Notes: a model not told the origin generated them from the letters alone. Shown: positions 46,443 through 59,453, counted from the stretch's first letter. The stretch: 64,000 bases of DNA from Gammaproteobacteria bacterium (GCA_024640985.1 JAHEDY010000001.1:35769-99768), one strand, 5' to 3'. Made by a program: numbers and translations.

Positions 46443-47522
46443 ATGCGTCAGATTTTGATCGGTTTTTCTTTGCTCTTTTCTCAATCGTTGATTGCCGAAG
46501 GAGTTCCTGTTTATGTGGATCGTGCGGTGAGCGCTCAGGTGCAAACAGGAACATCGGTCGCAGGGCGCATCGTCGCCGGTGAAATCTATACCTTATCCGC
46601 TGAGGTCTCTGAATCGGTGTCAGCGATGAATGTTCGCGTCGGCGACACCGTCATAAGCGGTGATGAGTTGGCGCGACTTGACGATACTGAAATACGCAAT
46701 CACTTAAAGAGCTTGAAGGCGCGGCAAGCGTATCTGAGGGCGCATCTTGATCTTCTAAAACAACGGAAGACGGTTCGCTTACAGCAATTGGAACGCGCCA
46801 AAGGCTTGACGTCGCGCGACCTATTAACACGTGATGTGACAGAACAAGCAGAACTCAATGTCATTCAAACAGAAAGTGATGTGGTGAAGACAGCCTACGA
46901 GCTTGAGGATCTGAAAATCGACATCGCTGATAGTGAGCGTCAGTTGAAGCAGACCCGCATCCTTGCGAATGCCAGTGGGCGAGTGATCGAAGTCAGTGTG
47001 ACTGAAGGTCAATATGTCAAACCAGGCGATCAATTATTTCAGCTGCTTCCAGAGCTTGGGGTCGAGGTTGAGGCAGAAGTCAGACCAGAAGCCTATGAAT
47101 CCATGTCGGTAGGCCAGATTGTTTCAGGACAGCTCAGGAAATCCTCAGCCGATCTGAAGGTGCGGGCGTTGATTGCTGAGCAGAATCAGAGGACGGGATC
47201 GAGAGTCATTCGCTTAGAGTTCGTGAGTCCTCCTAAGGCGACCTTAGTGTTGGGTGAGTCGATTGATTTGAAGCTGCCGATCGGTCAACTGACAGAGCAA
47301 GTGACGATTGCCAAGGATGCTGTGATTCCTGGTAAAGAGGGGCATCGTGTCGTTGTCATTGTCGATGGAAAAGCTGAGTCTCGACGCATTGAACTGGGTG
47401 CCGGAGTCGGTGATCGTATCGTGGTCATGAAAGGTGTCACTGCTGGTGATTTAGTTGTCACCCAAGGCCAAGAAGGGCTCCGTAAAGGACAACAGGTCAG
47501 TGTGGTCGGAGGTCAATCGTGA
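46443..47522 (+). CDS. RND efflux periplasmic adaptor (MFP)
   Basis: Signal peptide, lipoyl/coiled-coil/barrel pattern (ILANASGRVIEVSVTEGQYVKPGDQLFQL). 4-nt overlap with the RND gene. Confidence 0.8.
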   Translation: MRQILIGFSLLFSQSLIAEGVPVYVDRAVSAQVQTGTSVAGRIVAGEIYTLSAEVSESVSAMNVRVGDTVISGDELARLDDTEIRNHLKSLKARQAYLRAHLDLLKQRKTVRLQQLERAKGLTSRDLLTRDVTEQAELNVIQTESDVVKTAYELEDLKIDIADSERQLKQTRILANASGRVIEVSVTEGQYVKPGDQLFQLLPELGVEVEAEVRPEAYESMSVGQIVSGQLRKSSADLKVRALIAEQNQRTGSRVIRLEFVSPPKATLVLGESIDLKLPIGQLTEQVTIAKDAVIPGKEGHRVVVIVDGKAESRRIELGAGVGDRIVVMKGVTAGDLVVTQGQEGLRKGQQVSVVGGQS

Positions 47523-50500
47523 ATGGATTGATCCGAGGTGCAATTGCGCATCCGATTGCCGTCTTGGCGATTGTGCTATCCATGATTTTGTTTGGCGTCG
47601 CATCCTTGCAGACCATTCCGATTCAAATGACACCGGACATTGATAAACCGGTGTTACAGGTGCGCGTCAGTTGGCCTGGTGCATCGCCGAAGGATGTAGA
47701 ACAAGAAGTCGTACTTCGTCTTGAACGCGAACTGACGGGGTTATCAGGAGTGCAAAGCGTCGAAAGTGATAGTCGTCGCGGCCAAGCTCGAGTGACTTTA
47801 ACCTACAGTGTCGGGCAAGACATGGATTCGGCCTTAGTGAAATTGCTTGGACAACTGGCCCGAGTTTCTGGTTTGCCCAGTGATGCCAAGCAACCAGAGG
47901 TGAGAACATCGAATTCTGACGATTCACCGATCGCTCGGATGGCGCTGGTGGCGAATGATGGCGTCTCTGTCGATATTGATACCTTGGGAGAATTCGTCGA
48001 TACGGTGATTCTGGAGCCTTTGAGCCGAATCGCTGGTGTGTCTGAAGTCACGTCCCGAGGCGGTGCTGCCCGCGAAATCCGCATTGCACTGGATATGGAC
48101 CGCGTGGCCGAATTTGGTTTGTCGATTTCCGAGATTGCTGATGCCATTCGCGCATCGTCTGCCGAAGTGACTGCTGGAGAAGTGACTGAAGGAAATCGGA
48201 GTTTCACCTTAAGGACAGAGGCCATTAGCTACACCCCAGAGACGGCGAAGGAACTGGTGGTTCGAACAGAGCTCAGAAATGGCCGTGTTTTCAATGTGAA
48301 ATTGTCGGATGTCGCTGATGTTGAACTGGGTTATAAAACGCCCGATAGTTTCCGTCGTTTAAACGGGAGACCCGCAATTACATTTTCGGTACTTCGTGAG
48401 CCAGCATCCAATGTGGTCACCACGCTCGATGCTCTGAAGGCGGAAGTTGATGCGTTAAACCAGGGAGTCTTGGCTGAGCGGGGCCTTGACCTGCGGATCG
48501 TTTATGACGAGACGGTTTACATCGGATCGGCGTTGGATTTGGTTCAAAATAACATCATGATTGGTGGCGTTCTGGCGATTGTGGTGTTGCTCACTTTCCT
48601 TCGTGCGCTCGCACCAACAGCGATCGTGATGATTGCCATTCCGGTCTCGATCATCTCAACTTTTGTGGTGATCGCCGGACTGGGTCTTTCCATCAACGTC
48701 ATTTCGCTCGCCGGACTCGCCTTTGCAGTCGGTATGGTTGTGGATGCATCCATTGTGAGCTTGGAGAATATTTATCGATTAAAGCAATCGGGTGTGGCCA
48801 CTCTAAAAGCATCCTATTGGGGGGCGCGACAGGTCTGGGCCCCCATTCTGGGTTCGGCATTAACCACGGTGGTGGTTTTCATTCCAATCCTGATCCTTGA
48901 TCTTCCAGTTGGTCAATTGTTCCGAGATATTGCCGTCGCGATCAGTGCATCTGTCATTGTGTCAGTGATTGTCTCTGTCACCGTGATTCCTGCGCTCGCA
49001 TCGCGTCTGATCAAAGATGTGAAAAGTTTCGATCAACAACGACGGATTCCGATTGTGGATACCTTAGCTGGTGGCTTTAAGCGTTTGGTATTGGCTTACG
49101 GTCGGAAGGTCGTGCAATCCACAACCCTCGGTTTAGTGATCGTCTTTGGCCTCATTGCTGGATCTGTTGTGACCTTAATTGTGATGATGCCGCCGCTTGA
49201 TTATTTGCCTGACGGAAACCGCAACTTCGTGTTTGGCCGAATATCGGTGCCCTCGGGGTATACGCGGGAAGCGACGGTGAATTTTGCGCAATCGATGGAA
49301 GATGTTGCGCGCCCCCTGTGGGAGAACCCGAATCCTGAAAAACTCCCACACATTGATCGATTCTTTTTTGTGGCATACAACGGAGGTGCCTTTGCAGGTG
49401 CTGCTACTGAAGATGCTGGGCGGATTCGTGAGCTGATACCGGTGTTATCAGAGCCTGTCGCAAAAGCGCCCGGTGCGCGGGCGTTTGTCACACAGGCATC
49501 ATTGTTCGGGCGCTCTGTTGGAGGGTCGAGGGGGATCTTGATTGATGTCTTGGGCCCTGATTACGAGAGCGTTGAGCCGGCCTTTCGTGACATTCGTCGG
49601 CAAGTCGGAGAGCTCTTTCCCCGAAAAGATGGGCATCAAATTCGAGTTCGGCCCTCAGAAAATGCGGTCAGCCCGGAGCTTGTCGTGAGGCCTAGTCCAG
49701 ATGCGCTTGCCCGCGCTGGGGTATCTGCTCGTGATTTTGCGCAAGCCTTAGATGTCTACAACGATGGGATTTTAGTCCGTGAAATTCCGTTGGGTGGTGA
49801 ATTGGTTGAACTCATTTTAACAACCCAAACTCGAGAGACGGCAAAAATTGAAGACATTGCTGATATTCCAGTGATCGCCAGAGATGGATCGCTGGTGAAA
49901 ATCGGTCAAGTCGCGGAGGTGTCGATTGAGTCGGCCCCCAACCAGTTGTTGCGAAAGGCCGGGAGGCGTGTCGTGACAATTGAGCTTCGACTGCATGAAT
50001 CGATTCCATTGGAGACAGCCATTGCGACCATTAATGACCAGGTCGTCGCGCCATTTAACATTGGTTCGAAAAACGGCGTTCGTCTTGAGCTTTCGGGTGC
50101 GGCTGACGAGCTGTCAAAAGCCTGGAGTGCGATGCAGGCGAATGTGATTCTGGCGATTGCCGTGATCTATTTATTATTGGTGGTTCTGCTCAAGAGTTTT
50201 GCACTGCCACTGGTGATCTTGGTCACCGTTCCGATTGCGGCAACAGGTGGTATTTTGGGGCTTAGCCTTCTCAACCTCTTTATGGATCAACCCCTGGATA
50301 TGTTGACCATGCTTGGGTTTATTATTTTGACCGGTGTCGTGGTGAATAATGCGATCCTGATGGTTGAGCAGACGCTGTGGCATATTCAGCATGACGGGAT
50401 GGCTTCGGCCGATGCCATCCTTGAAGCAACAAGTAATCGTATTCGACCGATTTTTATGTCGACACTCACCAGTCTCTTTGGTCTATTGCCTTTGATTGTG

Positions 50501-50692
50501 TTCCCAGGTGCCGGTTCAGAGCTGTATCGGGGAATCGGAATCGTTGTGTTTGGCGGCTTGCTGTTATCGACCGTGCTGGCACTGTTCTTCATTCCGCCAT
50601 TGCTTGCGGTGTTAATGAAACGCTTCCAGCCATCCAGTCCAGTGGGTGACGTCACCGAAGAGATGACGGCACCACTTTCTCAAACTGCCTGA
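47519..50692 (+). CDS. RND efflux permease (AcrB family)
   Basis: 1057 aa, 12 TM with two periplasmic loops and an AFAVGMVVDASIV TM4 motif. Confidence 0.9.
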   Translation: MNGLIRGAIAHPIAVLAIVLSMILFGVASLQTIPIQMTPDIDKPVLQVRVSWPGASPKDVEQEVVLRLERELTGLSGVQSVESDSRRGQARVTLTYSVGQDMDSALVKLLGQLARVSGLPSDAKQPEVRTSNSDDSPIARMALVANDGVSVDIDTLGEFVDTVILEPLSRIAGVSEVTSRGGAAREIRIALDMDRVAEFGLSISEIADAIRASSAEVTAGEVTEGNRSFTLRTEAISYTPETAKELVVRTELRNGRVFNVKLSDVADVELGYKTPDSFRRLNGRPAITFSVLREPASNVVTTLDALKAEVDALNQGVLAERGLDLRIVYDETVYIGSALDLVQNNIMIGGVLAIVVLLTFLRALAPTAIVMIAIPVSIISTFVVIAGLGLSINVISLAGLAFAVGMVVDASIVSLENIYRLKQSGVATLKASYWGARQVWAPILGSALTTVVVFIPILILDLPVGQLFRDIAVAISASVIVSVIVSVTVIPALASRLIKDVKSFDQQRRIPIVDTLAGGFKRLVLAYGRKVVQSTTLGLVIVFGLIAGSVVTLIVMMPPLDYLPDGNRNFVFGRISVPSGYTREATVNFAQSMEDVARPLWENPNPEKLPHIDRFFFVAYNGGAFAGAATEDAGRIRELIPVLSEPVAKAPGARAFVTQASLFGRSVGGSRGILIDVLGPDYESVEPAFRDIRRQVGELFPRKDGHQIRVRPSENAVSPELVVRPSPDALARAGVSARDFAQALDVYNDGILVREIPLGGELVELILTTQTRETAKIEDIADIPVIARDGSLVKIGQVAEVSIESAPNQLLRKAGRRVVTIELRLHESIPLETAIATINDQVVAPFNIGSKNGVRLELSGAADELSKAWSAMQANVILAIAVIYLLLVVLLKSFALPLVILVTVPIAATGGILGLSLLNLFMDQPLDMLTMLGFIILTGVVVNNAILMVEQTLWHIQHDGMASADAILEATSNRIRPIFMSTLTSLFGLLPLIVFPGAGSELYRGIGIVVFGGLLLSTVLALFFIPPLLAVLMKRFQPSSPVGDVTEEMTAPLSQTA

Positions 50693-50748: not shown

Positions 50749-51847
50749 ATGGAAATTAACGCCCGCAATGCAATGATGGCAGACCTGAAAGCGCGTACTG
50801 ACGTGCTGAGGGGGTATCTTTGACTACACTGCCAAACGCGAACGACTTGATGAAGTCAATTTAGAACTCGAAGACCCAAATGTCTGGAATGATCCGGCCA
50901 AAGCACAGGCTTTGGGACGAGAACGGGCCAGCTTAGAAGGTGTGGTCGAGACCATCGATGAGCTGGATCAAAGCCTCGACGATCAGAAAGAACTCACAGC
51001 GATGCTTCTTGATGAAGGCGATGAAGATGGGCTATCGGAAGTGGATGAGGAGCTTGAACGGCTCGAAACCCTTGTCGGTGGTCTTGAATTTCGTCGAATG
51101 TTTTCCGGTGAAGCCGACAGCAACAATTGTTACCTCGACATTCAGGCGGGCTCAGGAGGAACGGAAGCCCAAGACTGGGGCAATATGTTGCTTCGGATGT
51201 ACCTACGGTGGGCTGAGAAAAAAGGCTTTAAAGTTGAGGTAGTTGAAGTCTCCGAAGGAGAGGTCGCAGGCATCAAGAGTGCGACGATCCACGTCCAAGG
51301 TGAATACGCCTACGGTTGGCTTCGGACGGAGACTGGTGTGCACCGGTTGGTCCGCAAAAGCCCGTTTGATTCCGGAGCCCGGCGACATACCTCATTTTCA
51401 TCTGTGTTTGTCTCGCCAGAGATCGATGACAATGTCGAGATCGAAGTGGATCCATCAGATCTTCGCATTGATACCTATCGGGCATCGGGAGCGGGTGGTC
51501 AGCACGTCAACCGAACTGACTCTGCGGTTCGTATTACCCACGAGCCTAGCGGTATTGTTGTGCAGTGTCAGAGCCAACGGTCGCAGCATCAGAACAAAGA
51601 CTTTGCGATGAAACAGCTCCGCGCTAAGTTGTATGAGCGCGAAATGGACGCTCGGAAAGCCGAAGCACAGGCGCTTGAGGACTCAAAGGCAGATATCGGG
51701 TGGGGTAGTCAGATTCGGTCATACGTTCTGGACTCTAGCCGAATTAAAGATTTGAGAACGGGTGTGGAATCATCCAACACGCAGGCTGTCCTCGACGGCG
51801 CCTTAGACCCATTTATAGAAGCAAGCTTGAAGCAGGGATTGTCATGA
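50749..51847 (+). CDS. prfB: Peptide chain release factor 2, made by a programmed +1 frameshift: join(50749..50820, 50822..51847)
   Basis: Frame 0 encodes [24 protein letters not shown] and then hits TGA at 50821-50823. The +1 frame continues [12 protein letters not shown]... into the supplied 50912..51847 ORF. It has the SPF tripeptide (RKSPFDS) and GGQ (SGAGGQHVN). Total length 365 aa. Confidence 0.92.
50809..50824 (+). other. RF2 autoregulatory +1 frameshift site
   Basis: AGGGGG-TAT-CTT-TGA-C: an internal Shine-Dalgarno-like element, slippery CTT, in-frame TGA and a following C. Matches the E. coli prfB frameshift site as I recall it. Confidence 0.9.
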
Positions 51848-53358: not shown

Positions 53359-53439
53359 TCATGGGATTCTGTGGATTCGTGCAAGTCATCGGCTTCCACG
53401 GCCGTTTGTGATGCCATTGAATGCACTGAGGGTGTCTCG

Positions 53440-53850
53440 ATGAATCCATGGATTGCGCATCTTGAAAACCAGGACTTGAAGTGGATCGTTGATCAGGGCC
53501 AGGGGATCTATTTGGATCCCGGAATTGAGATCCATTTCCCACACCCGACACTGATTTTAGATGGTGAGCTTGAGTGTCGAGGCCACGTTCGTGGAGGGGG
53601 TGCGTTACTTGGTCTTTCCGAATGGTATTTGGAAATTGATCAAGGAAGCTTTTGGCATGTCAATACGCCCGTTTGGGGTCTTGAATTGCCGTTAACAGCG
53701 AAACATAAAGCTGCCTGGAGCGTTGCTTTAGCAGTCGCTATGTCAGCAGAAATCCGATTGGCTCAACCTGATGCACAGGGACTGGCTGATGTCGAAGCAG
53801 CGCGTCTGAAATTCCGGTATGTTGTGAGCCAGTTGGAAACTACTTTGTGA
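53440..53850 (+). CDS. Small cyclic-nucleotide-binding-like (beta-roll) protein, hypothetical
   Basis: 136 aa from ATG 53440 (RBS GAGGG). LENQDLKWIVDQGQGIYLDPGIEIHF..PTLILDGELEC...GLSEW resembles a degenerate CAP effector-domain layout, read by eye only. An in-frame GTG at 53371 is an alternative start. Confidence 0.45.
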   Translation: MNPWIAHLENQDLKWIVDQGQGIYLDPGIEIHFPHPTLILDGELECRGHVRGGGALLGLSEWYLEIDQGSFWHVNTPVWGLELPLTAKHKAAWSVALAVAMSAEIRLAQPDAQGLADVEAARLKFRYVVSQLETTL

Positions 53851-53859
53851 GGAATTTCA

Positions 53860-54366
53860 GTGGCTGAAGAATCGCGTCAGTCGGCAACTGATGGACTGGG
53901 ATTGCCGCGCCGGATGTGGTGGCTGTGGCCTTTCGTGGTCTTATTGATTGTGATCTGGGCAATCAGTTTGTGGGCGGTCCGTGTGGCTGATACGGAAACA
54001 ACGCTCGGCGTTGTGACCTCCCACCGAGGCTTGGGTAATACCGCACGTGCCGAGATTGCTCTCTTTGTTCCGTCATCGATTCAACCGCGAGTTCTTGGTG
54101 AAGCAGTGGACGTGACCTGTCAGGGTGTGACCTTAAAAGCACAAGTTTTTTCTGAGTCGGGCGATATTCTCTCGGTTCAGGATATTCGTGATTGGGTGGG
54201 GAGTCGCTTGTTGGCCGAGCGGCTGTTTAATGATGGAGTCCGATTGCAACAGGTAGTGACAGAATCAGGAGCGCATATTCCAGCGCCGGGTGAACATTGT
54301 GATGTGACTGTCATCAGTGGTCGTGTGCGTTTGCTGGAGCTCCTTGGGCGCAGCCTTCAGTCATGA
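53860..54366 (+). CDS. Truncated HlyD-like adaptor (TM anchor plus C-terminal barrel only)
   Basis: 168 aa, GTG start with GAGGA RBS. One TM (MWWLWPFVVLLIVIWAISLWAV), then a beta-rich segment ending ...GEHCDVTVISGRVRLLELLGRSL, like the C-terminus of type I secretion HlyD proteins. No room for the lipoyl or coiled-coil hairpin. Confidence 0.5.
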   Translation: MAEESRQSATDGLGLPRRMWWLWPFVVLLIVIWAISLWAVRVADTETTLGVVTSHRGLGNTARAEIALFVPSSIQPRVLGEAVDVTCQGVTLKAQVFSESGDILSVQDIRDWVGSRLLAERLFNDGVRLQQVVTESGAHIPAPGEHCDVTVISGRVRLLELLGRSLQS

Positions 54367-55592
54367 CAGCGATTGTCGATGGACTGATTGCAACTGGGGC
54401 AACCTTCGAAGCGGTTGCAGATGAGGCTCGCTCTCTTGGTTACCGCCTGAAAGAACGTCGTCTTAAGCCTCCATTCGCCGGATCTGTTTTTGTTGACTCC
54501 ACGGGGCGACTTCATCGGATTCGTTATGCAGTCCTTGGCTGGGTTGCCAGCATCGATGGCGACTCGAAGCTTCATCTGACCCGATGGAGAAAAGCCTTTG
54601 CGGTTGGTGGTTATGTGCTGGAGCCAGAGCGAGCGGATTACAATTTAACCGTGCAATGGTTTGCTCTGACGCTGGTTGTGGTTGCGCGCCTGTTGCTGGT
54701 GATGCTGGTCAGTATCCTTGGGCAAGTGAGTGACCAGACTTTGGCACCATTGTGGATTCTGACTGCGCTAATTCTGGCATCAACCACCTACACATCCATC
54801 ACCTTAATTCATCGCTCTCAATGGCATGATCTTGAAGCTGCACTCGATGCCATGGCCCCAGACTGGATTCCTCGTTTATCTCGAGATGTGGGTGGAAGAA
54901 TCCTCGCAGTGACAACCCTGTTTGGCATGTTGATCTTGGATCGGGTGCTTGAACTGTCGCCTGCGATTTGGGTTGTCGGGATTGGCTTTTTGTTCCTTGA
55001 TTTGATGCCGACTCGCCATTTTAAGCAAGCCAAGGCGCTTACACTGACGCCAGAAGTACGCACAGCAAGGGAGCCACGTCAGTTGATGGCGCAGTTGACG
55101 ATGCTTTTGAAGGTTGTCGGCCCTGGAGTCTACGTACTTAACACGCAATTTCCAGAACGGCTGTTGGCCGCCAGTGAAAATCTCGTTCGAGCCGGCGAAC
55201 CCTTAACGGTATTAGGTCCTGAAGCGGAGTTTTTACCGGGCACGCTCAGGAGTAACTTTGCTTGGGATGCTAGTGACATCGGGGAGTATCACTTTAGTAA
55301 CTTGATGGATTTGGTCGGATTTCCGCACTGGAAAGCGCGTTTTGGTGGTTCATTAAACTATCAAGTCGGTCCCAATAATCAGGGATTATCATCGTCAGAA
55401 GCTTCGGCGCTTCAAGTGGCTCGTGCGCTTGCTCAAGGTGCGGATACGCTCATTTTGGTGGACGCATTAGCTCCGATGTCGGCCGATCGACAAATGGAAT
55501 TATTGAACCGTTTAGCGGCAGCAAGTTGTCGTGTCTTTGTGTTTTCGAGTGTTTCAGATTTGTGGGATAGTGATGTCATCGATCTCGACTGA
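54363..55592 (+). CDS. ABC-exporter-like membrane protein with degenerate (pseudo) nucleotide-binding domain
   Basis: 409 aa with about 4 TM. The C-terminal about 150 aa align by eye to an ABC NBD. The signature is LSSSEASALQVARAL (canonical LSGGQ.QR.A.ARAL). Walker B is TLILVDALAPMSAD (Glu replaced by Ala). The Walker A position reads LGPEAEFLPGT, with no GxxGxGK[ST]. Confidence 0.55.
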   Translation: MTAIVDGLIATGATFEAVADEARSLGYRLKERRLKPPFAGSVFVDSTGRLHRIRYAVLGWVASIDGDSKLHLTRWRKAFAVGGYVLEPERADYNLTVQWFALTLVVVARLLLVMLVSILGQVSDQTLAPLWILTALILASTTYTSITLIHRSQWHDLEAALDAMAPDWIPRLSRDVGGRILAVTTLFGMLILDRVLELSPAIWVVGIGFLFLDLMPTRHFKQAKALTLTPEVRTAREPRQLMAQLTMLLKVVGPGVYVLNTQFPERLLAASENLVRAGEPLTVLGPEAEFLPGTLRSNFAWDASDIGEYHFSNLMDLVGFPHWKARFGGSLNYQVGPNNQGLSSSEASALQVARALAQGADTLILVDALAPMSADRQMELLNRLAAASCRVFVFSSVSDLWDSDVIDLD

Positions 55593-57408
55593 AACGCAAA
55601 GCTTCCATCTCAACCAAGGCAAATTATCGGCAGGCTTGGCGCGTGACCGGCTGTGGCAAGTGAAAGAGGGTCAAGCCCGACTTCGTTTGGTAATTTCAGG
55701 TGAAACTGTCGGTGAGATGTCTGTCCCGGAATCGGGTTGGTTTTTAGTTCCAGAAAGCGGCTATTTACGAGTTCAACTGATTGCGGAAACCGACATCACT
55801 TTTGAAAGTCGCCTGCCCTTAGGCTTGATCCCACGGCTGGGTGATTTAGGCCGTCGGCAACTAATTCAGCCGATTCGCCAGATGATGGCTGCTGCAGGAA
55901 TCGACGACAGCTTGGTCGACTGGAATGTGAAATTGGCACAACCAAGCTTCCGCTCTTGGTTTGGTGAATCACTCGATCAAGCGATTCAACAGAAACAACC
56001 GCTGTCACCAGATGTCTTGACTCCATTAATCGCAGATCATGTTCCACGGACGATTCTCGAACACGATGTTGCCGTCGAAGAGCACCGAGTGGTTTGGGTG
56101 TTAATGACTGTTTGTGCGTTATCGATGGTTGCTGTGGTGAGCTGGCTTGGTGCATTGGTTGCCCTGGAAGCACCGGGTTTTTCATTGAGTACCCAGTACT
56201 TTGCCGTGATCGCCGCTTGCCTCGGATTCATTATTGCCTCGGTCGGAGTGATTCATTCGTTAGCCGCATATTTCCGAGACGTCCGTCCAGTGGGGTTGGC
56301 GGCTGCCTTGTCGATGACGATCTTAATTCTTCTCTTTGAAGCGCCAACGCTTGCGTTATCACTGCTATTTTCAGGCGCATTAATTGCTGGAGCCTATTGG
56401 ATTTACGTCAGACGTTTGTTGCCGGATTTGCCAGCGATTGATCAACCGATGCGCTGGTTGTCGCTGCGTTTGGCTCGCGATGGTGTGCCTTCGGTTCGTG
56501 AACGGGTTTTGACTGTCTGGGATCAGGCCAGACAATGGGTGATTGCGCGGATTGAGTTGGTCGCTGAATACAGTCGTTTCAGTCGTTCGGTCATCGCTGC
56601 GAGTTTGGTGATTCCCGCTATTGCGTCAACAGACGACAGTCGACCGATTGTGCTCACCGGCTTATCTTTGGCGGCACTGATTTTATTGGAGCGATTACGG
56701 GCAGCCATTCCTGTGAGTGTGGAGTCAGAGACTGTGACTCAATCCCCATCGGCTCGACCGCTGGCACTGGCAGGGGATGTGAACTATGAAGGAATTGTCT
56801 ATCGACGTCACGCAGGTGAAGCTCCGTTATTTGATCAATTAAACTTTCACTGTGCCGATGACAGTTTGGTTCGAATCACTGCAGCCGAAGGAGCTGGGCT
56901 CTCGACACTCAAGCATCTGTTGATGCGTCAAGTCTCACCGGAACGAGGTGTCGTGCGTGTTGGTGGGATGGATGTGGCAAGACTGGATCCCAATCTTCTC
57001 GCATGTTCGGTGATTACACTTGACCACCCCAAAGATTCGGAAGTCTCGACAGTGGGCGACTGGTTATTCATTGAACCAGGCATTGAGCCTTCAACGTTAG
57101 AGACTCACCTTCAAGCACTGTCTGTCAGTCACTGGATCGAATCCCTGCAGGACCGGCTGAATACACCCTTGGGTGTCTTGCAATCGATGGCCGGTCCGCA
57201 TGGAATGAATCGGTTGAAATTGGCGCGAGCGCTATCGCGGCAAGGGCAGTTGATGTGGCTTGATCATTGGTTAGTAGGCCTTGACCAATCAGCCCGGACG
57301 CATGTGGTTGAGAGCTTAGTCGAGCGTTCAGGAACACGATTTGTGGTTGATCGCAACGGGCTCTTTAGAGGGAAACCGTCGATTCATTGGGAGATTGGCG
57401 GTGATTGA
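55573..57408 (+). CDS. cNMP-binding-like domain / ABC-exporter-like membrane protein with degenerate NBD
   Basis: About 611 aa. N-terminal beta-roll-like region (LWQVKEGQARLRLVISGETVGEMSVPESGWFLVP...), then about 5-6 TM. In the C-terminal NBD-like domain, Walker A is AAEGAGLST (Lys replaced by Leu). The signature is MAGPHGMNRLKLARAL. Walker B is LMWLDHWLVGLD (Glu replaced by His). The H-loop position is FVVDRNG (His replaced by Asp). Confidence 0.55.
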   Translation: MSSISTETQSFHLNQGKLSAGLARDRLWQVKEGQARLRLVISGETVGEMSVPESGWFLVPESGYLRVQLIAETDITFESRLPLGLIPRLGDLGRRQLIQPIRQMMAAAGIDDSLVDWNVKLAQPSFRSWFGESLDQAIQQKQPLSPDVLTPLIADHVPRTILEHDVAVEEHRVVWVLMTVCALSMVAVVSWLGALVALEAPGFSLSTQYFAVIAACLGFIIASVGVIHSLAAYFRDVRPVGLAAALSMTILILLFEAPTLALSLLFSGALIAGAYWIYVRRLLPDLPAIDQPMRWLSLRLARDGVPSVRERVLTVWDQARQWVIARIELVAEYSRFSRSVIAASLVIPAIASTDDSRPIVLTGLSLAALILLERLRAAIPVSVESETVTQSPSARPLALAGDVNYEGIVYRRHAGEAPLFDQLNFHCADDSLVRITAAEGAGLSTLKHLLMRQVSPERGVVRVGGMDVARLDPNLLACSVITLDHPKDSEVSTVGDWLFIEPGIEPSTLETHLQALSVSHWIESLQDRLNTPLGVLQSMAGPHGMNRLKLARALSRQGQLMWLDHWLVGLDQSARTHVVESLVERSGTRFVVDRNGLFRGKPSIHWEIGGD

Positions 57409-57865
57409 GCAACAACTGTTTCTTGGTGCTCTGACCGAACAAGAGTATCGGCATTGGCTCGATAATGCTGTGGTGAAAACACTCAGTGCCGGTGAGACCT
57501 TGATCACTGAAGATGATTTTCCAGACATTTACCTCGTGTTGCGCGGGCAATTCACGGTCCGTCGTGGTGAGCGGTCACCTGGAATGGTGGGGCTTGATGA
57601 ATTTTTAACGGGCTGGATGACGGATCGAGAATGGATTGCTGATCGGTCGATGACCCTGCTTTCGATTGATTCAGGACGATTTGGCCAGATGTTATCCGTT
57701 GAACCTCACCGAAAGCGTCTCTTCCATCAGAGTGTTACGCCAATGCTTGCTGGCCGGTTGCACCGAGATTTGTGCGCAACAACGGAGATTCCTATCGCAT
57801 TGGTCCAAGACTTTGAGCGCGGTGTTCGGCGCTTTTTTGAACTTAGACAGAATTTTCTGAAGTGA
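57401..57865 (+). CDS. Stand-alone cyclic-nucleotide-binding (CAP_ED-like) domain protein
   Basis: 154 aa from GTG 57401 (GGGAG RBS; GTGATTGA overlap with the upstream stop). LFLGALTEQEYRHWLDNAVVKTLSAGETLITEDDFPDIYLVLRGQFTV... follows the CAP_ED consensus. The phosphate-binding cassette is non-canonical. Confidence 0.6.
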   Translation: MIEQQLFLGALTEQEYRHWLDNAVVKTLSAGETLITEDDFPDIYLVLRGQFTVRRGERSPGMVGLDEFLTGWMTDREWIADRSMTLLSIDSGRFGQMLSVEPHRKRLFHQSVTPMLAGRLHRDLCATTEIPIALVQDFERGVRRFFELRQNFLK

Positions 57866-59028
57866 CCACACCCAACGCAACGAATCGCCATGGAGAGGGT
57901 TTTCTATATCTCTCGATCATGATTTGTTTTTGTGTGCTCTATGCACCGCAACCGATGCTTTCAGAATTGGCTGACCGATTTATGGTCTCCAAACCAGAGG
58001 CGGGACTTCTGGTTTCCGTCACTCTGATTCCACTGGCGATCGCGCCTTTAAGCTATGGCATTTTTTTAAAACAACTCAGTGCGTTAACCATTCTCAAGTG
58101 GGCACTTCCGACCTTGGCCTTGGCGATGGCCTGGTCTGGGTTCGTGCAAACCTATGAGGGAATGCTCACGCTTCGGTTGATCCAGGGCGCGCTCCTGCCC
58201 GCCATTATGACCGCGACGATGGCCTATTTAACGTCAGGCCGTGAGGGAGGTGAGCTCTCTCGAGTCATGGCTTGGTATATTTCAGCGACGATTTTTGGTG
58301 GGATGGCCGGGCGAGTCATTTCCGGACAGTTAGCGTCCATGATTGCCTGGGAATGGGTGGCTTTGATTTGGGCTGGGCTTCTTCTCATGGTGACCTTGAT
58401 GCCTTGGCGTCGAGCGACTCCGAAGCCACTGAACTTAGTAAAGCCTGACGCACAGTTAATCCGACAGGCCATGACCAGCCGCGGTAATGCATTGATTTAT
58501 GTCTCAGTCCTTTGCATGTTTTGGGTGTTTGCGGGTTATCTCAATTACTTACCCTTTCGGATTAATGAACTCGATGCTTCGGCATCGACTGGATTGATTG
58601 GTCAAAGTTATTTGGGTTACAGCATTGGGATTGTGTCTGCCTTGACAGCCGGTTGGCTTGCGAAGCGCGTCGGGGGCGTGATTCGTGCGGCACTGATTGG
58701 ATTTGCGGTCATGATTGGTTCATTACTGTTGGCGCTCGGCAATGTCTGGATGTTGATCACTCAGGTCTTTGTGATGTGCCTTGGGATGTTTGTGATTCAT
58801 ACGCTAGCGGCATCGGAAGTGAACCATAACGCGCGCTCTTTGAGTGGTGTGGTGAACGGTCTCTATGTGTCCTGTTATTACGCAGGCGGTGCTCTTGGTG
58901 CTTGGTTGATGGGGTATGTGTATGAGCTCTTTGGGTGGACCACTTTTGTCGTTGTCCTCTCATGCATTGGCATGGCCGGAGCACTATGCATGTGGCTGTA
59001 TGGTCGTCAGTGGGCTGCTGGTCGATAG
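57862..59028 (+). CDS. MFS transporter (YnfM-like)
   Basis: 12-TM MFS with a YAPQPMLSELADRF N-terminal motif resembling the YnfM family. GTGA overlap with the preceding gene. Confidence 0.85.
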   Translation: MTTPNATNRHGEGFLYLSIMICFCVLYAPQPMLSELADRFMVSKPEAGLLVSVTLIPLAIAPLSYGIFLKQLSALTILKWALPTLALAMAWSGFVQTYEGMLTLRLIQGALLPAIMTATMAYLTSGREGGELSRVMAWYISATIFGGMAGRVISGQLASMIAWEWVALIWAGLLLMVTLMPWRRATPKPLNLVKPDAQLIRQAMTSRGNALIYVSVLCMFWVFAGYLNYLPFRINELDASASTGLIGQSYLGYSIGIVSALTAGWLAKRVGGVIRAALIGFAVMIGSLLLALGNVWMLITQVFVMCLGMFVIHTLAASEVNHNARSLSGVVNGLYVSCYYAGGALGAWLMGYVYELFGWTTFVVVLSCIGMAGALCMWLYGRQWAAGR

Positions 59029-59453
59029 ACTCCGGAATTTTTGTCATTCTCTCGACATTCCACTTCAAGCAAGAACGATCGATCATTAGTTTGCTGACGA
59101 ATCCACCCATCGACATAGTGAAAAACGAATTCAGCGGTGCGTTCCATACTGACGTTGGGTAGGACCCTGAGATCCACGATCTTCTTCTCATGAAGTTCGT
59201 GGAATAAGGCGCGCTCTGGATCGTCTTCATTGATCAGCAGGGTGTGATCAAACCAGTGGGATAACCAGGATTTAATCTCTGAAAACTCACCGAAATCGAC
59301 GCCGAACCCGGATTCCGTCAGTTCCGTGCAGCCAAAAGTCATTTTAAAGCTACGTGAATAACCGTGAATGAATTTACAATGGCCTGAGTGTCGCCACTGC
59401 CGATGACTGCATGGAAAGTTGTCGAAGGTTTTAATGGTTTGATAAACACTCAT
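59007..59453 (-). CDS. 6-pyruvoyl-tetrahydropterin synthase / QueD-family protein
   Basis: FPCSHRQW..HSGHCKFIHGYS (Zn-binding His cluster plus catalytic Cys) and DHTLL motif. ATG at 59453. Confidence 0.7.
   Translation of the reverse strand: MSVYQTIKTFDNFPCSHRQWRHSGHCKFIHGYSRSFKMTFGCTELTESGFGVDFGEFSEIKSWLSHWFDHTLLINEDDPERALFHELHEKKIVDLRVLPNVSMERTAEFVFHYVDGWIRQQTNDRSFLLEVECRENDKNSGVYRPAAH

What the first reader, a model, noticed from the sequence alone, without database searches (positions are those of the whole stretch)
53440..59028. Six-gene coupled operon downstream of lysS: cNMP-like domains, mini-HlyD, two pseudo-ABC exporters and an MFS
Six same-strand ORFs begin right after lysS with no terminator in the 81-nt gap.

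Their junctions imply translational coupling:
- 9-nt gap at 53850/53860.
- ATGA overlap at 54363.
- 20-nt overlap at 55573.
- GTGATTGA at 57401.
- GTGA at 57862.

Read by eye, the products are:
- a 136-aa beta-roll/cNMP-like protein;
- a 168-aa HlyD remnant;
- a 4-TM ABC-like protein;
- a cNMP-like-domain/TM/ABC-like protein;
- a stand-alone CAP_ED protein;
- a YnfM-type MFS.

The parts list echoes the cyclic-nucleotide-regulated ABC bacteriocin exporter plus HlyD modules of type I secretion, which I recall as a cyanobacterial and proteobacterial architecture. Several things are missing here. Both NBDs appear catalytically dead. The adaptor lacks its coiled coil. I see no C39 catalytic Cys, no outer-membrane factor and no obvious GG-leader peptide gene.

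My hypothesis is an ATPase-dead ABC/HlyD scaffold repurposed as a small-ligand sensing or gating complex, possibly acting on the co-translated MFS. I do not recognise it as a described system.
Basis: partly seen in the sequence, partly recalled or inferred. Interest (0 to 1): 0.8.

Follow-up and report, generated by a model that had tools for sequence, protein, structure and literature searches.

The report
Clade-specific ATPase-dead ABC exporter-like operon
A small family of marine bacteria (Litoricola/Litorivicinaceae) keeps, under strong selection, a five-gene operon for a membrane complex that clearly descends from an ATP-driven peptide/toxin exporter but has lost the residues needed to burn ATP at both sites, so what it now does is unknown.

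Summary
The six same-strand ORFs and all five junctions are exactly as described.

The conserved unit is five genes (A-E), not six. A-E lie in the same order between lysS and a PTPS gene in every one of the 26 GTDB species loci that carry a D relative, all Litoricola/Litorivicinaceae. The MFS gene F is absent from nine of these loci and frameshifted in one.

- **D** is a type IV ABC-exporter-fold protein whose catalytic motifs are all replaced, invariantly across the family.
- **C** keeps only the C-terminal half of an NBD, with signature LSSSE.
- **E** is a divergent cNMP-binding-fold protein, and A is distantly related to E.
- **B** is a single-pass protein with a small beta-barrel that only weakly resembles the barrel of membrane-fusion proteins.
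- The N-domains of C and D match nothing.

dN/dS is 0.01-0.09 for B-F in two comparisons and for A in one, so these are not pseudogenes. An exhaustive profile search of 1.84 billion proteins finds no full-length relative outside the clade.

Best reading: a lineage-restricted derivative of a two-ABC + HlyD + CAP_ED export cassette that no longer hydrolyses ATP. Its present function is unknown; a ligand-gated conduit or sensor is inferred only. I class it as a new variant of a known kind, of moderate-to-high interest.

The parts
53359..53439 (+). lysS-A intergenic gap, with a weak terminator-like hairpin at 53390-53404 and a GGGTG Shine-Dalgarno-like motif before the A start codon.
   Evidence: The gap is poorly conserved apart from the SD-like motif, and relatives carry a stronger hairpin here.
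53440..53850 (+). Gene A, 136 aa, soluble. A distant relative of E (cNMP-binding-fold-like) that lacks the phosphate-binding Arg.
   Evidence: hhalign A family vs E family: probability 80%, E = 1.5e-5 over 93 columns. No Pfam or PDB sequence hit. Conserved in all loci. dN/dS = 0.01 against L007; the 0.29 against L004 rests on two differences.
53860..54366 (+). Gene B, 168 aa. N-in single-pass membrane protein (TM about residues 17-40) with a roughly 110-aa periplasmic beta-barrel. Possibly a remnant of a membrane-fusion (HlyD-type) protein.
   Evidence: Hydropathy. AF2 model with pLDDT 68 and six strands plus two short helices. Foldseek: TdpA barrel at 2e-3; MexA, MacA, EmrA and AcrA barrels at E = 0.13-0.4 with probability 0.8-0.96. 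No HMM hit. dN/dS = 0-0.013.
54363..55592 (+). Gene C, 409 aa. Orphan N-domain (residues 1-95), about 4 TM helices (residues ~100-215), and a truncated pseudo-NBD (residues ~268-409) in which the Walker A to Q-loop segment is deleted.
   Evidence: The profile matches IrtB at 8e-5 and CFTR NBD1 at 4e-4, over residues 267-405 only.
55386..55400 (+). C signature motif LSSSE (canonical LSGGQ), invariant in the family. It is followed by LILVDA, where the Walker B catalytic Glu is replaced by Ala.
   Evidence: Alignment A4. In-register alignment to IrtB LSGGE ... LLVDEA.
55573..57408 (+). Gene D, 611 aa. Orphan beta-rich N-domain (residues ~10-140), a compact TMD of about 6 helices (residues ~170-378), and a full-length but motif-degenerate NBD (residues ~400-611).
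56881..56907 (+). D Walker A position, AAEGAGLST. The P-loop Lys is replaced by an invariant Leu443.
   Evidence: Alignment A1 invariant columns G440, G442, L443 and T445. Aligned to GNSGAGKST of ABCB1.
57247..57267 (+). D Walker B position, QLMWLDH. Asp564 is kept and the catalytic Glu is replaced by an invariant His565. Nearby, the signature is GPHGM instead of LSGGQ, and the H-loop His is read as Asp593.
   Evidence: for Walker B and the signature. The H-loop position lies beyond the printed PDB alignment and is read from alignment A1 against recalled ABCB1 sequence.
57401..57865 (+). Gene E, 154 aa, soluble. A divergent cyclic-nucleotide-binding (CAP_ED) fold protein.
   Evidence: PF00027 at 1.4e-3 in the window protein. 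11 of 12 family members hit it, best 5.9e-5, all below the gathering score. PDB profile hits to PKG and PKA-R at 2e-3 to 0.04. TIGR03896 at 0.019.
57862..59028 (+). Gene F, 388 aa, an MFS transporter. It is an accessory neighbour, not part of the conserved module.
   Evidence: PF07690 at 6.5e-29, above its cutoff. Absent in L013, L014, L016-L018, L020, L021, L027 and L028; frameshifted in L011.

Best explanation
Genes A-E form a five-gene, translationally coupled operon restricted to the Litoricola/Litorivicinaceae clade. It encodes a heteromeric inner-membrane complex that descends from a type-I-secretion or bacteriocin-type export cassette (two ABC half-transporters, a HlyD-type adaptor, and CAP_ED accessory domains).

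**Shown**
- D has a type IV ABC-exporter-like fold with a complete NBD.
- C carries only the C-terminal half of an NBD.
- Every catalytic motif is replaced, and the replacements are invariant across the family. In D: Walker A Lys to Leu, Q-loop Gln to Asp/His, signature to GPHGM, and catalytic Glu to His; the H-loop His is read as Asp. In C: Walker A deleted and catalytic Glu to Ala.
- All six genes are under strong purifying selection.

**Inferred**
- C and D pair as a heterodimer.
- The only composite nucleotide site left is D's P-loop plus C's well-kept LSSSE signature. It could at most bind a nucleotide or another phosphorylated ligand and cannot hydrolyse it. The other site no longer exists.
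- The stretches read here, by eye, as coupling-helix-like (D 290-303 PMRWLSLRLARDGV; C PDWIPRLSRDVGG) are among the best conserved. This suggests the pseudo-NBD state is still transmitted to the membrane domain.
- The small CNB-fold proteins A and E and the orphan cytoplasmic N-domains of C and D act as ligand-sensing or regulatory inputs.
- B caps or stabilises the periplasmic face without reaching the outer membrane.

The most likely mode of action is therefore a hydrolysis-independent, ligand-gated conduit or membrane sensor rather than a primary pump. The adjacent MFS gene is a dispensable neighbour.
For: - **Conservation.** A-E are present in the same order in all 26 GTDB species loci that have a D relative, always between lysS and PTPS, at identities down to 42-48%.
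- **Selection.** dN/dS is 0.01-0.09 at dS of about 0.2-0.3 for B-F against L004 and L007 and for A against L007 (0.29 against L004, from two differences). lysS is 0.04. Synonymous sites are saturated while pN is only 0.07-0.17 against more distant relatives.
- **D.** NBD homology and in-register motif substitutions. AF2 model with pLDDT 76, and Foldseek matches to IrtB, YbtPQ, TM287/288, PCAT1, HlyB and MsbA at 1e-14 to 1e-15 over about 530 columns.
- **C.** NBD remnant and its motifs.
- **E and A.** E has a CNB fold. A is related to E.
- **B.** Topology and beta-barrel.
- **Precedent for the parts list.** Cyanobacterial bacteriocin cluster groups IV and V combine a C39-ABC, a CAP_ED-ABC without C39 and HlyD; group V adds a protein made only of CAP_ED domains (PMC3140520, PMC4558948).
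- **Why hydrolysis is unlikely.** Mutating Walker A or the catalytic Glu blocks ABC transporter function, and the degenerate sites reviewed map to NBS1 while NBS2 energises the cycle (PMC7756269).
- **F is dispensable**.
Against: - No experiment or complex model supports the C-D pairing, the stoichiometry or the gating.
- C/D paralogy in the TMD is not statistically detectable (hhalign probability 0.7%; BLASTP not significant).
- The link between B and HlyD is weak: no HMM hit, and Foldseek E = 0.13-0.4.
- The putative phosphate-binding Arg76 of E is Gln in L027, and A has no equivalent Arg, so cNMP binding is doubtful.
- D's TMD gets only TM-scores of 0.3-0.4 against real exporters, and PF00664 is not matched.
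- Descent specifically from the cyanobacterial CAP_ED cassette rests on parts-list resemblance only. D's NBD is equally close to CydDC, HlyB, MsbA and NHLP ABCs.
- Non-canonical catalysis cannot be excluded from sequence alone.
Confidence: 0.55

Rival explanations
1. The complex is still an ATP- or NTP-driven exporter that uses non-canonical catalytic residues. For example, the invariant His565 after the Walker B Asp could act as the base, and the invariant Arg411-Arg412-His413 next to the A-loop Tyr could replace the P-loop Lys. It would work with a single active composite site (D P-loop plus C LSSSE).
For: - The P-loop glycines and Ser444/Thr445, the A-loop Tyr410 and the Walker B Asp564 of D are all invariant, as is the near-canonical LSSSE signature of C.
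- Conservation of one composite site alongside complete loss of the other mirrors known asymmetric exporters (PMC7756269).
Against: - The Walker A Lys, the catalytic Glu and the Q-loop Gln are all missing from the one remaining site, and the H-loop His is read as Asp.
- Mutating either Walker A motif or the catalytic Glu blocks function in studied transporters (PMC7756269).
- I know of no precedent for an ABC NBD that hydrolyses ATP without the P-loop Lys.
Confidence: 0.15
2. One reading: the dead ABC/HlyD scaffold is a regulatory or gating partner of the co-translated MFS transporter F.
For: There is a GTGA start/stop overlap between E and F. F is under purifying selection where it is present (dN/dS = 0.05-0.07).
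Against: - F is absent from nine species loci that retain an intact A-E block (L013, L014, L016-L018, L020, L021, L027, L028), and it is frameshifted in L011.
- In L027 an EamA-type gene on the opposite strand occupies the position.
- L029 carries only a 41%-identical MFS there.
Confidence: 0.07
3. It is a working peptide, bacteriocin or type I secretion exporter (PCAT- or NHLP-like), and its substrate gene lies elsewhere in the genome.
For: - The parts list resembles cyanobacterial bacteriocin clusters (PMC3140520, PMC4558948, PMC2887384).
- There are weak hits to TIGR03796/03797 and TIGR03896.
- PCAT1 and HlyB are among the structural matches.
Against: - No C39 domain is detectable.
- No GG-leader ORF is present in the window.
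- The adaptor is too short to reach an outer-membrane factor, and the model has no alpha-hairpin.
- No energy-coupling site remains.
- Scores are far below the family cutoffs: 40 bits against 709-853.
Confidence: 0.06
4. It is a decaying relic of an exporter operon with no present function (pseudogenes in progress).
For: Catalytic motifs have been lost and one NBD is truncated. One metagenome contig (L006) has D split into two ORFs.
Against: - dN/dS is 0.01-0.09, similar to lysS.
- ORFs are intact, with conserved start/stop overlaps, in 26 species of a genome-streamlined clade at down to about 45% identity.
- The substituted motif residues are themselves invariant.
Confidence: 0.02

Closest known systems
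Heterodimeric type IV (type I exporter fold) ABC exporters with one degenerate ATP site, such as TM287/288, IrtAB, YbtPQ, CydDC, TmrAB, and CFTR as a channel derivative
   Same: - Overall fold of D (Foldseek 1e-14 to 1e-15).
- NBD sequence homology.
- Two unequal half-transporter genes lie side by side.
- Asymmetry between the two composite sites.
- The stretches read by eye as coupling helices are highly conserved.
   Different: - Both sites are non-canonical here. One is physically deleted (C lacks the Walker A to Q-loop segment). The other lacks the P-loop Lys, the catalytic Glu and the Q-loop Gln, and the H-loop His is read as Asp.
- In the asymmetric exporters reviewed, NBS2 stays canonical and energises the cycle (PMC7756269).
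- The TMD is much shorter: about 210 aa in D and about 4 helices in C.
- PF00664 is not matched.
- The N-domains are orphans.
Cyanobacterial/NHLP bacteriocin export cassettes (TIGR03794 HlyD, TIGR03796 C39-ABC, TIGR03797 ABC, TIGR03896 CAP_ED-only protein; groups IV and V of Wang et al. 2011)
   Same: The gene inventory matches: two ABC half-transporters, one membrane-anchored adaptor, and stand-alone CAP_ED-fold protein(s). The ABC proteins carry N-terminal cytoplasmic extra domains (PMC3140520, PMC4558948, PMC2887384). E gives a weak hit to TIGR03896.
   Different: - No C39 peptidase and no GG-leader precursor.
- The adaptor lacks the lipoyl and alpha-hairpin domains.
- HMM scores are far below the family cutoffs.
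- The NBDs are catalytically dead.
- The host is a gammaproteobacterium, and the block sits at a fixed housekeeping locus (lysS-PTPS) rather than in a biosynthetic cluster.
Membrane-fusion/periplasmic adaptor proteins (HlyD, MacA, EmrA, MexA, AcrA)
   Same: B has the same topology: a cytoplasmic N-terminus, one TM helix and a periplasmic domain. Its beta-barrel superposes on MFP beta-barrel domains at rmsd 3-5 Å over about 100 residues.
   Different: - B is only 168 aa.
- It has no barrel-sandwich (lipoyl), alpha-hairpin or membrane-proximal domain.
- No HMM similarity is detectable.
- The best Foldseek hit is actually a HerA-type HAS-barrel (TdpA, 2e-3).
CAP/CRP-type cyclic-nucleotide-binding domains (PF00027)
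   Same: The E family hits PF00027 in 11 of 12 members and hits the CNB domains of PKG and PKA-R. An invariant G-x-x-E ... R segment sits where the phosphate-binding cassette would be.
   Different: - All scores are below the gathering threshold.
- The cassette Arg is not invariant in E and is absent in A.
- There is no DNA-binding or other output domain.

Membership tests
ABC transporter NBD (PF00005 ABC_tran) | Significant sequence or profile similarity to the NBD. | tested here: met
   D: NCBIfam CydD 1.8e-15 and HlyB 1.3e-14; PDB profile about 4e-17 per domain to ABCB1. Pfam gives 23.0 bits, just below the gathering score of 25. C matches only over residues 267-405, at 8e-5 to 4e-6.
ABC transporter NBD (PF00005 ABC_tran) | Walker A GxxGxGK[ST] with the P-loop lysine. 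| tested here: not met
   D has AEGAGLST with an invariant Leu443. In C the Walker A segment is deleted.
ABC transporter NBD (PF00005 ABC_tran) | Signature LSGGQ, Walker B hhhhDE with the catalytic Glu, and the H-loop His. | tested here: not met
   D: GPHGM, LDH (Glu to His565) and Asp593 read at the H-loop position. C: LSSSE (near-canonical), VDA (Glu to Ala) and Ser read at the H-loop position. The H-loop assignments are by-eye readings of the family alignments.
Type IV ABC exporter TMD (PF00664 ABC_membrane) | Six long TM helices with two intracellular coupling helices, and an HMM match. | tested here: inconclusive
   There is no PF00664 hit. The AF2 model has about 6 helices within residues 170-378. 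Foldseek aligns about 530 columns to IrtB, PCAT1, MsbA and HlyB at 1e-14 to 1e-15, but TM-scores are only 0.3-0.4. C has only about 4 TM segments.
HlyD / membrane fusion protein family (PF00529, PF13437, TIGR03794) | HMM match, and barrel-sandwich plus alpha-hairpin domains. | tested here: not met
   No Pfam or NCBIfam HlyD hit in any of the 11 B-family members. The model has no hairpin and the protein is only 168 aa.
HlyD / membrane fusion protein family (PF00529, PF13437, TIGR03794) | N-terminal TM anchor and an MFP-type beta-barrel domain. | tested here: inconclusive
   One TM segment around residues 25-43. Foldseek hits MexA, MacA, EmrA and AcrA at E = 0.13-0.4 with probability 0.8-0.96. 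hhalign against the window's own RND MFP gives probability 0.9%.
Cyclic-nucleotide-binding domain (PF00027) | HMM match at or above the gathering score. | tested here: inconclusive
   E: 19 bits against a cutoff of 27.5, but 11 of 12 members hit (best 5.9e-5), and the profile hits PKG and PKA-R in the PDB. A: no hit, linked only through E. D N-domain: no hit.
Cyclic-nucleotide-binding domain (PF00027) | Phosphate-binding cassette with conserved Glu and Arg. | tested here: inconclusive
   E has an invariant G64, L65 and E67, and R76 in 11 of 12 members (Gln in L027). A has G58 and E61 but no Arg at the equivalent spacing. The registers were set by eye against recalled CAP and PKA cassettes.
NHLP / cyanobacterial bacteriocin export cassette (TIGR03796, TIGR03797, TIGR03794, TIGR03896) | Family HMMs above cutoff, a C39 peptidase with catalytic Cys/His, and a GG-leader precursor nearby. 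| tested here: not met
   D scores 40 bits against cutoffs of 709-853, and E scores 14 against 161. There is no PF03412 hit and no PDB C39 hit for the C or D N-domains. A crude scan found no GG-leader ORF.
Major facilitator superfamily (PF07690), for F | HMM above the gathering score, and about 12 TM helices. | tested here: met
   MFS_1 at 6.5e-29 and 101 bits against a cutoff of 33.4. There are multiple hydrophobic segments. YnfM subfamily membership was not tested, and no equivalog hit was found.
Known anti-phage defence systems (PADLOC), e.g. Pycsar cNMP-binding effectors | Match to any PADLOC model. | tested here: not met
   None of the six proteins gives a hit.

The most novel reading that the evidence does not exclude
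A-E encode a bacterial ABC-exporter-derived complex in which neither nucleotide site can hydrolyse ATP; I know of no described natural example. The ABC/adaptor scaffold has been converted into a hydrolysis-independent device, either a ligand-gated conduit or a transmembrane sensor. Its state would be set by ligand binding to the CNB-fold proteins A and E, to the orphan N-domains, and to the relic D-P-loop/C-signature pocket. This would be conceptually parallel to CFTR or SUR in eukaryotes but taken further.
Probability: 0.3. Interest if true: 0.75.

Novelty: new variant of a known kind. Interest (0 to 1): 0.6.

Why it matters
ABC exporters are defined by ATP hydrolysis, and the asymmetric ones reviewed in PMC7756269 keep a canonical NBS2 that energises the cycle. 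Here a complex has one site deleted and the other stripped of its catalytic residues. It is nevertheless kept under selection as strong as an aminoacyl-tRNA synthetase, in a genome-streamlined and widely sampled marine clade.

That would show what the ABC/adaptor scaffold can do without its motor: gating, sensing or passive conduction. It also gives a natural experiment on which NBD-TMD contacts matter independently of catalysis.

The clade includes cultured strains (HIMB30, LSUCC0096), so the question can be tested. The practical caveat is that the family is confined to one bacterial family and its physiological role is completely unknown.

Tried and rejected
1. **Fusing A and B for one structure job.** The plain-letter fusion was misaligned by MAFFT. 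I dropped the idea and modelled B alone.
2. **Concatenated A+B homologue search.** It returned only B relatives, so A needed its own search.
3. **Looking for a C39 remnant in the N-domain of C.** By eye it resembles the C-terminal two-thirds of a C39 domain. No PDB or Pfam signal supports this. I did not adopt the idea.
4. **D N-domain as cNMP-like.** hhalign against the E and A families, against a Streptomyces NHLP ABC, and searches of Pfam and the PDB were all negative. It remains untested at fold level, because the full-length D model's Foldseek hits are dominated by the ABC core.
5. **C/D TMD paralogy.** It is not statistically supported.
6. **B against the window's own RND adaptor.** Not significant.
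7. **Defence-system reading (Pycsar-like cNMP effector).** There are no PADLOC hits, and the block sits at a fixed syntenic locus in every species.
8. **Pseudogene reading.** Rejected by dN/dS.
9. **First literature search** (Litoricola + ABC + cyclic nucleotide). It returned nothing relevant.
10. **The L007 D coordinates** were out of frame, and that row should be ignored.

Full report
**1. Observation**

The six ORFs are present as described.
- A/B: TGA, 9 nt, then GTG.
- B/C: ATGA overlap.
- C/D: 20-nt overlap.
- D/E: GTGATTGA.
- E/F: GTGA.

Independent gene calls on six metagenome contigs give the same genes. The same start positions and overlaps are found in orthologues down to about 45% identity.

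The lysS-A gap holds a weak GC hairpin followed by a short U-rich run (z = -0.5). Relatives L008, L010 and L019 hold a clearly stable hairpin there (z = -2.9 to -3.5), with a U-run after it in L008. In L020, L022, L023 and L027 about 1.1 kb separates lysS from A; in L027 this is a 375-aa gene. Apart from an SD-like motif, the gap is not conserved. Co-transcription with lysS is therefore possible in this genome but is not a property of the module.

**2. Organism and distribution**

The closest D protein (96% identical) is named as a hypothetical protein of a Litoricola sp. MAG. Litoricola is now Litorivicinus, family Litorivicinaceae, order Oceanospirillales.

A scan of one genome per GTDB species found 26 loci encoding a D relative. 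Those that carry a family- or genus-level name are Litoricola, Litorivicinus or Litorivicinaceae, and the set includes the cultured strains HIMB30 and LSUCC0096.

tblastn with all window proteins shows A-B-C-D-E in the same order in every locus that is long enough. The block always lies between lysS and a convergent PTPS gene, at identities down to 42-48%.

F behaves differently. It is absent from L013, L014, L016, L017, L018, L020, L021, L027 and L028, and it is broken into several frames in L011. In L027 an EamA-type gene on the other strand lies there. The conserved unit is therefore five genes, and the MFS is an accessory neighbour.

**3. Are the genes functional?**

Against two close relatives (dS of about 0.2-0.3), dN/dS is 0.00-0.09 for B to F, and 0.011 for A against L007. 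The value of 0.29 for A against L004 rests on two differences. lysS gives 0.04 (the L007 D row was out of frame and is void). Against more distant relatives, synonymous sites are saturated (pS of at least 0.69) while pN is 0.07-0.17. These are genes under strong purifying selection, not decaying relics.

**4. What the proteins are**

*D (611 aa).*
- Pfam ABC_tran scores just under threshold (23 bits against 25). NCBIfam exporter models (CydD, CydC, HlyB, MsbA-related, NHLP ABC1/2) score 1e-10 to 1e-15 over residues about 370-592.
- A family profile hits the ABCB1 NBDs at about 4e-17 per domain.
- That alignment is in register and shows the following substitutions. Walker A GNSGAGKST becomes AAEGAGLST. 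Q-loop SQEP becomes LDHP. Signature LSGGQ becomes GP(H/L)G(M/L). Walker B LLDEA becomes WLDHW. I read the H-loop His as Asp593 from the family alignment; that position lies beyond the printed PDB alignment.
- The substituted residues are invariant or nearly so in 20 family members spanning 43-96% identity. The degenerate state therefore predates the radiation of the family.
- The AF2 model has mean pLDDT 76. It shows an N-terminal domain of seven beta-strands plus helices (residues about 10-140), a helical membrane region (170-378) and the NBD.
- Foldseek against the PDB returns only type IV ABC exporters at the top: IrtB, YbtPQ, TM287/288, PCAT1, MsbA and HlyB, at 1e-14 to 1e-15 over about 530 columns. 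TM-scores are only 0.3-0.4.
- PF00664 is not matched, and the TMD is about 90 residues shorter than usual.

*C (409 aa).*
- It has an N-terminal soluble domain of about 95 aa, about four hydrophobic segments and a C-terminal region. That region matches only the second half of an NBD (IrtB 8e-5, CFTR NBD1 4e-4, CydD 4e-6).
- Read against IrtB, FLPGTLRSN aligns with the post-Q-loop LFxGTIRDN. LSSSE aligns with LSGGE. LILVDALAPLSA aligns with LLVDEATSALDA.
- The sequence runs directly from GEPLTVLGP into EAEFLPGT. I read this, from the sequence, as a deletion of the Walker A to Q-loop segment.
- These motifs are invariant in the family.

*E (154 aa).*
- PF00027 cNMP_binding scores 1.4e-3 in the window protein. 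It is hit in 11 of 12 family members (best 5.9e-5), always below the gathering score.
- The family profile hits the CNB domains of PKG and PKA-R in the PDB at 2e-3 to 0.04.
- TIGR03896, the CAP_ED-only protein of cyanobacterial bacteriocin clusters, scores 0.019.
- The most conserved stretch (G64, L65, E67 ... R76) lies where the phosphate-binding cassette would be. R76 is Gln in L027.

*A (136 aa).* It has no Pfam or PDB sequence hit. hhalign relates the A family to the E family (probability 80%, E = 1.5e-5, 93 columns). By eye, it lacks the cassette Arg.

*B (168 aa).*
- No HMM hit of any kind.
- One TM segment preceded by Arg-Arg, which suggests an N-in orientation.
- The AF2 model (pLDDT 68) gives a six-stranded barrel with two short helices.
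- Foldseek finds nothing at E of 1e-3 or better. The best hit is the HAS-barrel of TdpA (2e-3). It is followed by a run of membrane-fusion proteins (EmrA, MexA, MacA, Spr0693, AcrA) at E = 0.13-0.4, probability 0.8-0.96 and rmsd 3-5 Å over about 100 residues.
- hhalign against the window's own RND adaptor is not significant.
- "Mini-HlyD" is therefore a plausible reading but is only weakly supported.

*N-domains of C and D.* They match nothing in the PDB or Pfam. They also do not match the A and E families or a Streptomyces NHLP ABC protein.

*F.* A bona fide MFS_1 protein (6.5e-29).

None of the six proteins matches a PADLOC defence model.

**5. How isolated is the family?**

An exhaustive hmmsearch of the D profile against 1.84 billion representative proteins found 13 proteins at E of 1e-30 or better. 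Three are full-length and the rest are short (62-187 aa) matches to parts of the profile, which I take to be fragments of the same family. Every other hit (112 bits or less) aligns to the NBD only.

Word-based searches for A and B likewise returned only clade members annotated as hypothetical.

**6. Mechanism**

*Shown:* the fold and homology of D, the half-NBD of C, the motif substitutions, the conservation and selection, the dispensability of F, and the topologies.

*From established knowledge:*
- An ABC ATP site is built from Walker A, Walker B and the H-loop of one NBD plus the signature of the partner.
- Mutating either Walker A motif or the catalytic Glu blocks transporter function.
- In the asymmetric exporters reviewed, the degenerate site maps to NBS1 while a canonical NBS2 energises the cycle (PMC7756269).

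*Inferred:*
- C and D form a heterodimer.
- The site made from C-Walker A and D-signature no longer exists.
- The other site keeps D's P-loop glycines, Ser/Thr, A-loop Tyr410 and Walker B Asp, plus C's LSSSE. It has lost the Lys, the Glu and the Gln, and on my reading the H-loop His. It can at best bind a ligand and cannot turn it over.
- The stretches I read as coupling helices (D 290-303; C PDWIPRLSRDVGG) are among the most conserved. This suggests that the pseudo-NBD state is still transmitted to the membrane domain.
- A, E and the orphan N-domains are all predicted to be cytoplasmic, given the even TM counts, and are candidate ligand or regulatory inputs.
- B sits on the periplasmic face and is too short to bridge to the outer membrane.

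I therefore favour a hydrolysis-independent gated conduit or sensor. My confidence is about 0.8 in the anatomy and evolutionary derivation, and about 0.3 in the mode of action.

**7. Comparison with what is known**

The parts list echoes groups IV and V of cyanobacterial bacteriocin clusters. These have a C39-ABC, a CAP_ED-ABC without C39 and HlyD; group V adds a protein made only of CAP_ED domains (PMC3140520, PMC4558948). It also echoes the three-gene NHLP transport cassette (PMC2887384).

Membership fails every test, however: the HMM cutoffs, the C39 domain, the GG-leader precursor and a complete adaptor. D's NBD is no closer to those ABCs than to CydDC, HlyB or MsbA.

The block is best filed as a new, lineage-restricted variant of the heterodimeric type IV ABC exporter plus adaptor theme, with loss of both catalytic sites as its distinguishing feature.

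**8. Verdict**

- Confirmed: the dead ABC scaffold and the lack of any described family.
- Weak: the cNMP assignment for A and the HlyD assignment for B.
- Not supported: the cNMP assignment for the D N-domain, the functional link to the MFS, and the link to lysS.

Interest is 0.6.

Noticed in passing
window 50750-51847: prfB (RF2) carries the classic +1 programmed frameshift site. The ATG is at 50750, followed by AGGGGG-TAT-CTT-TGA-C at 50809-50824, and the main frame continues to 51847. It overlaps lysS by ATGA at 51844.
   Followed up: partly
L004 7141-12726 compared with window 53440-59028: Metagenome contig L004 is mosaic relative to the window. lysS and A are essentially identical (1-2 differences). 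B to F differ at dS = 0.20-0.32, the same divergence seen against L007. This implies a recent homologous-recombination breakpoint near the A/B junction within the population.
   Followed up: no
L006 5732-7566: In one sediment-metagenome contig the D gene is called as two ORFs (402 + 209 aa). The split falls just before the NBD. It is either an assembly or sequencing frameshift or a natural split variant.
   Followed up: no
L027 6719-7846 and 12229-13194: In the most divergent Litoricola genome a 375-aa gene is inserted between lysS and A. An EamA/DMT-like 321-aa gene on the opposite strand replaces the MFS after E. A canonical-looking CydC/CydD-type ABC gene (544 aa) lies just beyond PTPS.
   Followed up: no
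window 59007-59342 (- strand) against F's end at 59028: The convergent PTPS (6-pyruvoyl-tetrahydropterin synthase/QueD-like) gene overlaps the 3' end of F by about 22 nt. In species without F, PTPS follows E after a short gap.
   Followed up: no
L008 4017-4085, L010 7799-7867, L019 4083-4157: The lysS-A intergenic region of relatives holds a stable hairpin (z = -2.9 to -3.5), followed by a U-run in L008. In the window it is much weaker. It may be a terminator or attenuator separating lysS from the module.
   Followed up: partly
window 46443-50692: An RND efflux pair lies immediately upstream of prfB-lysS: a 359-aa membrane-fusion protein and a 1057-aa AcrB-type pump. It is unrelated in sequence to B.
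   Followed up: partly
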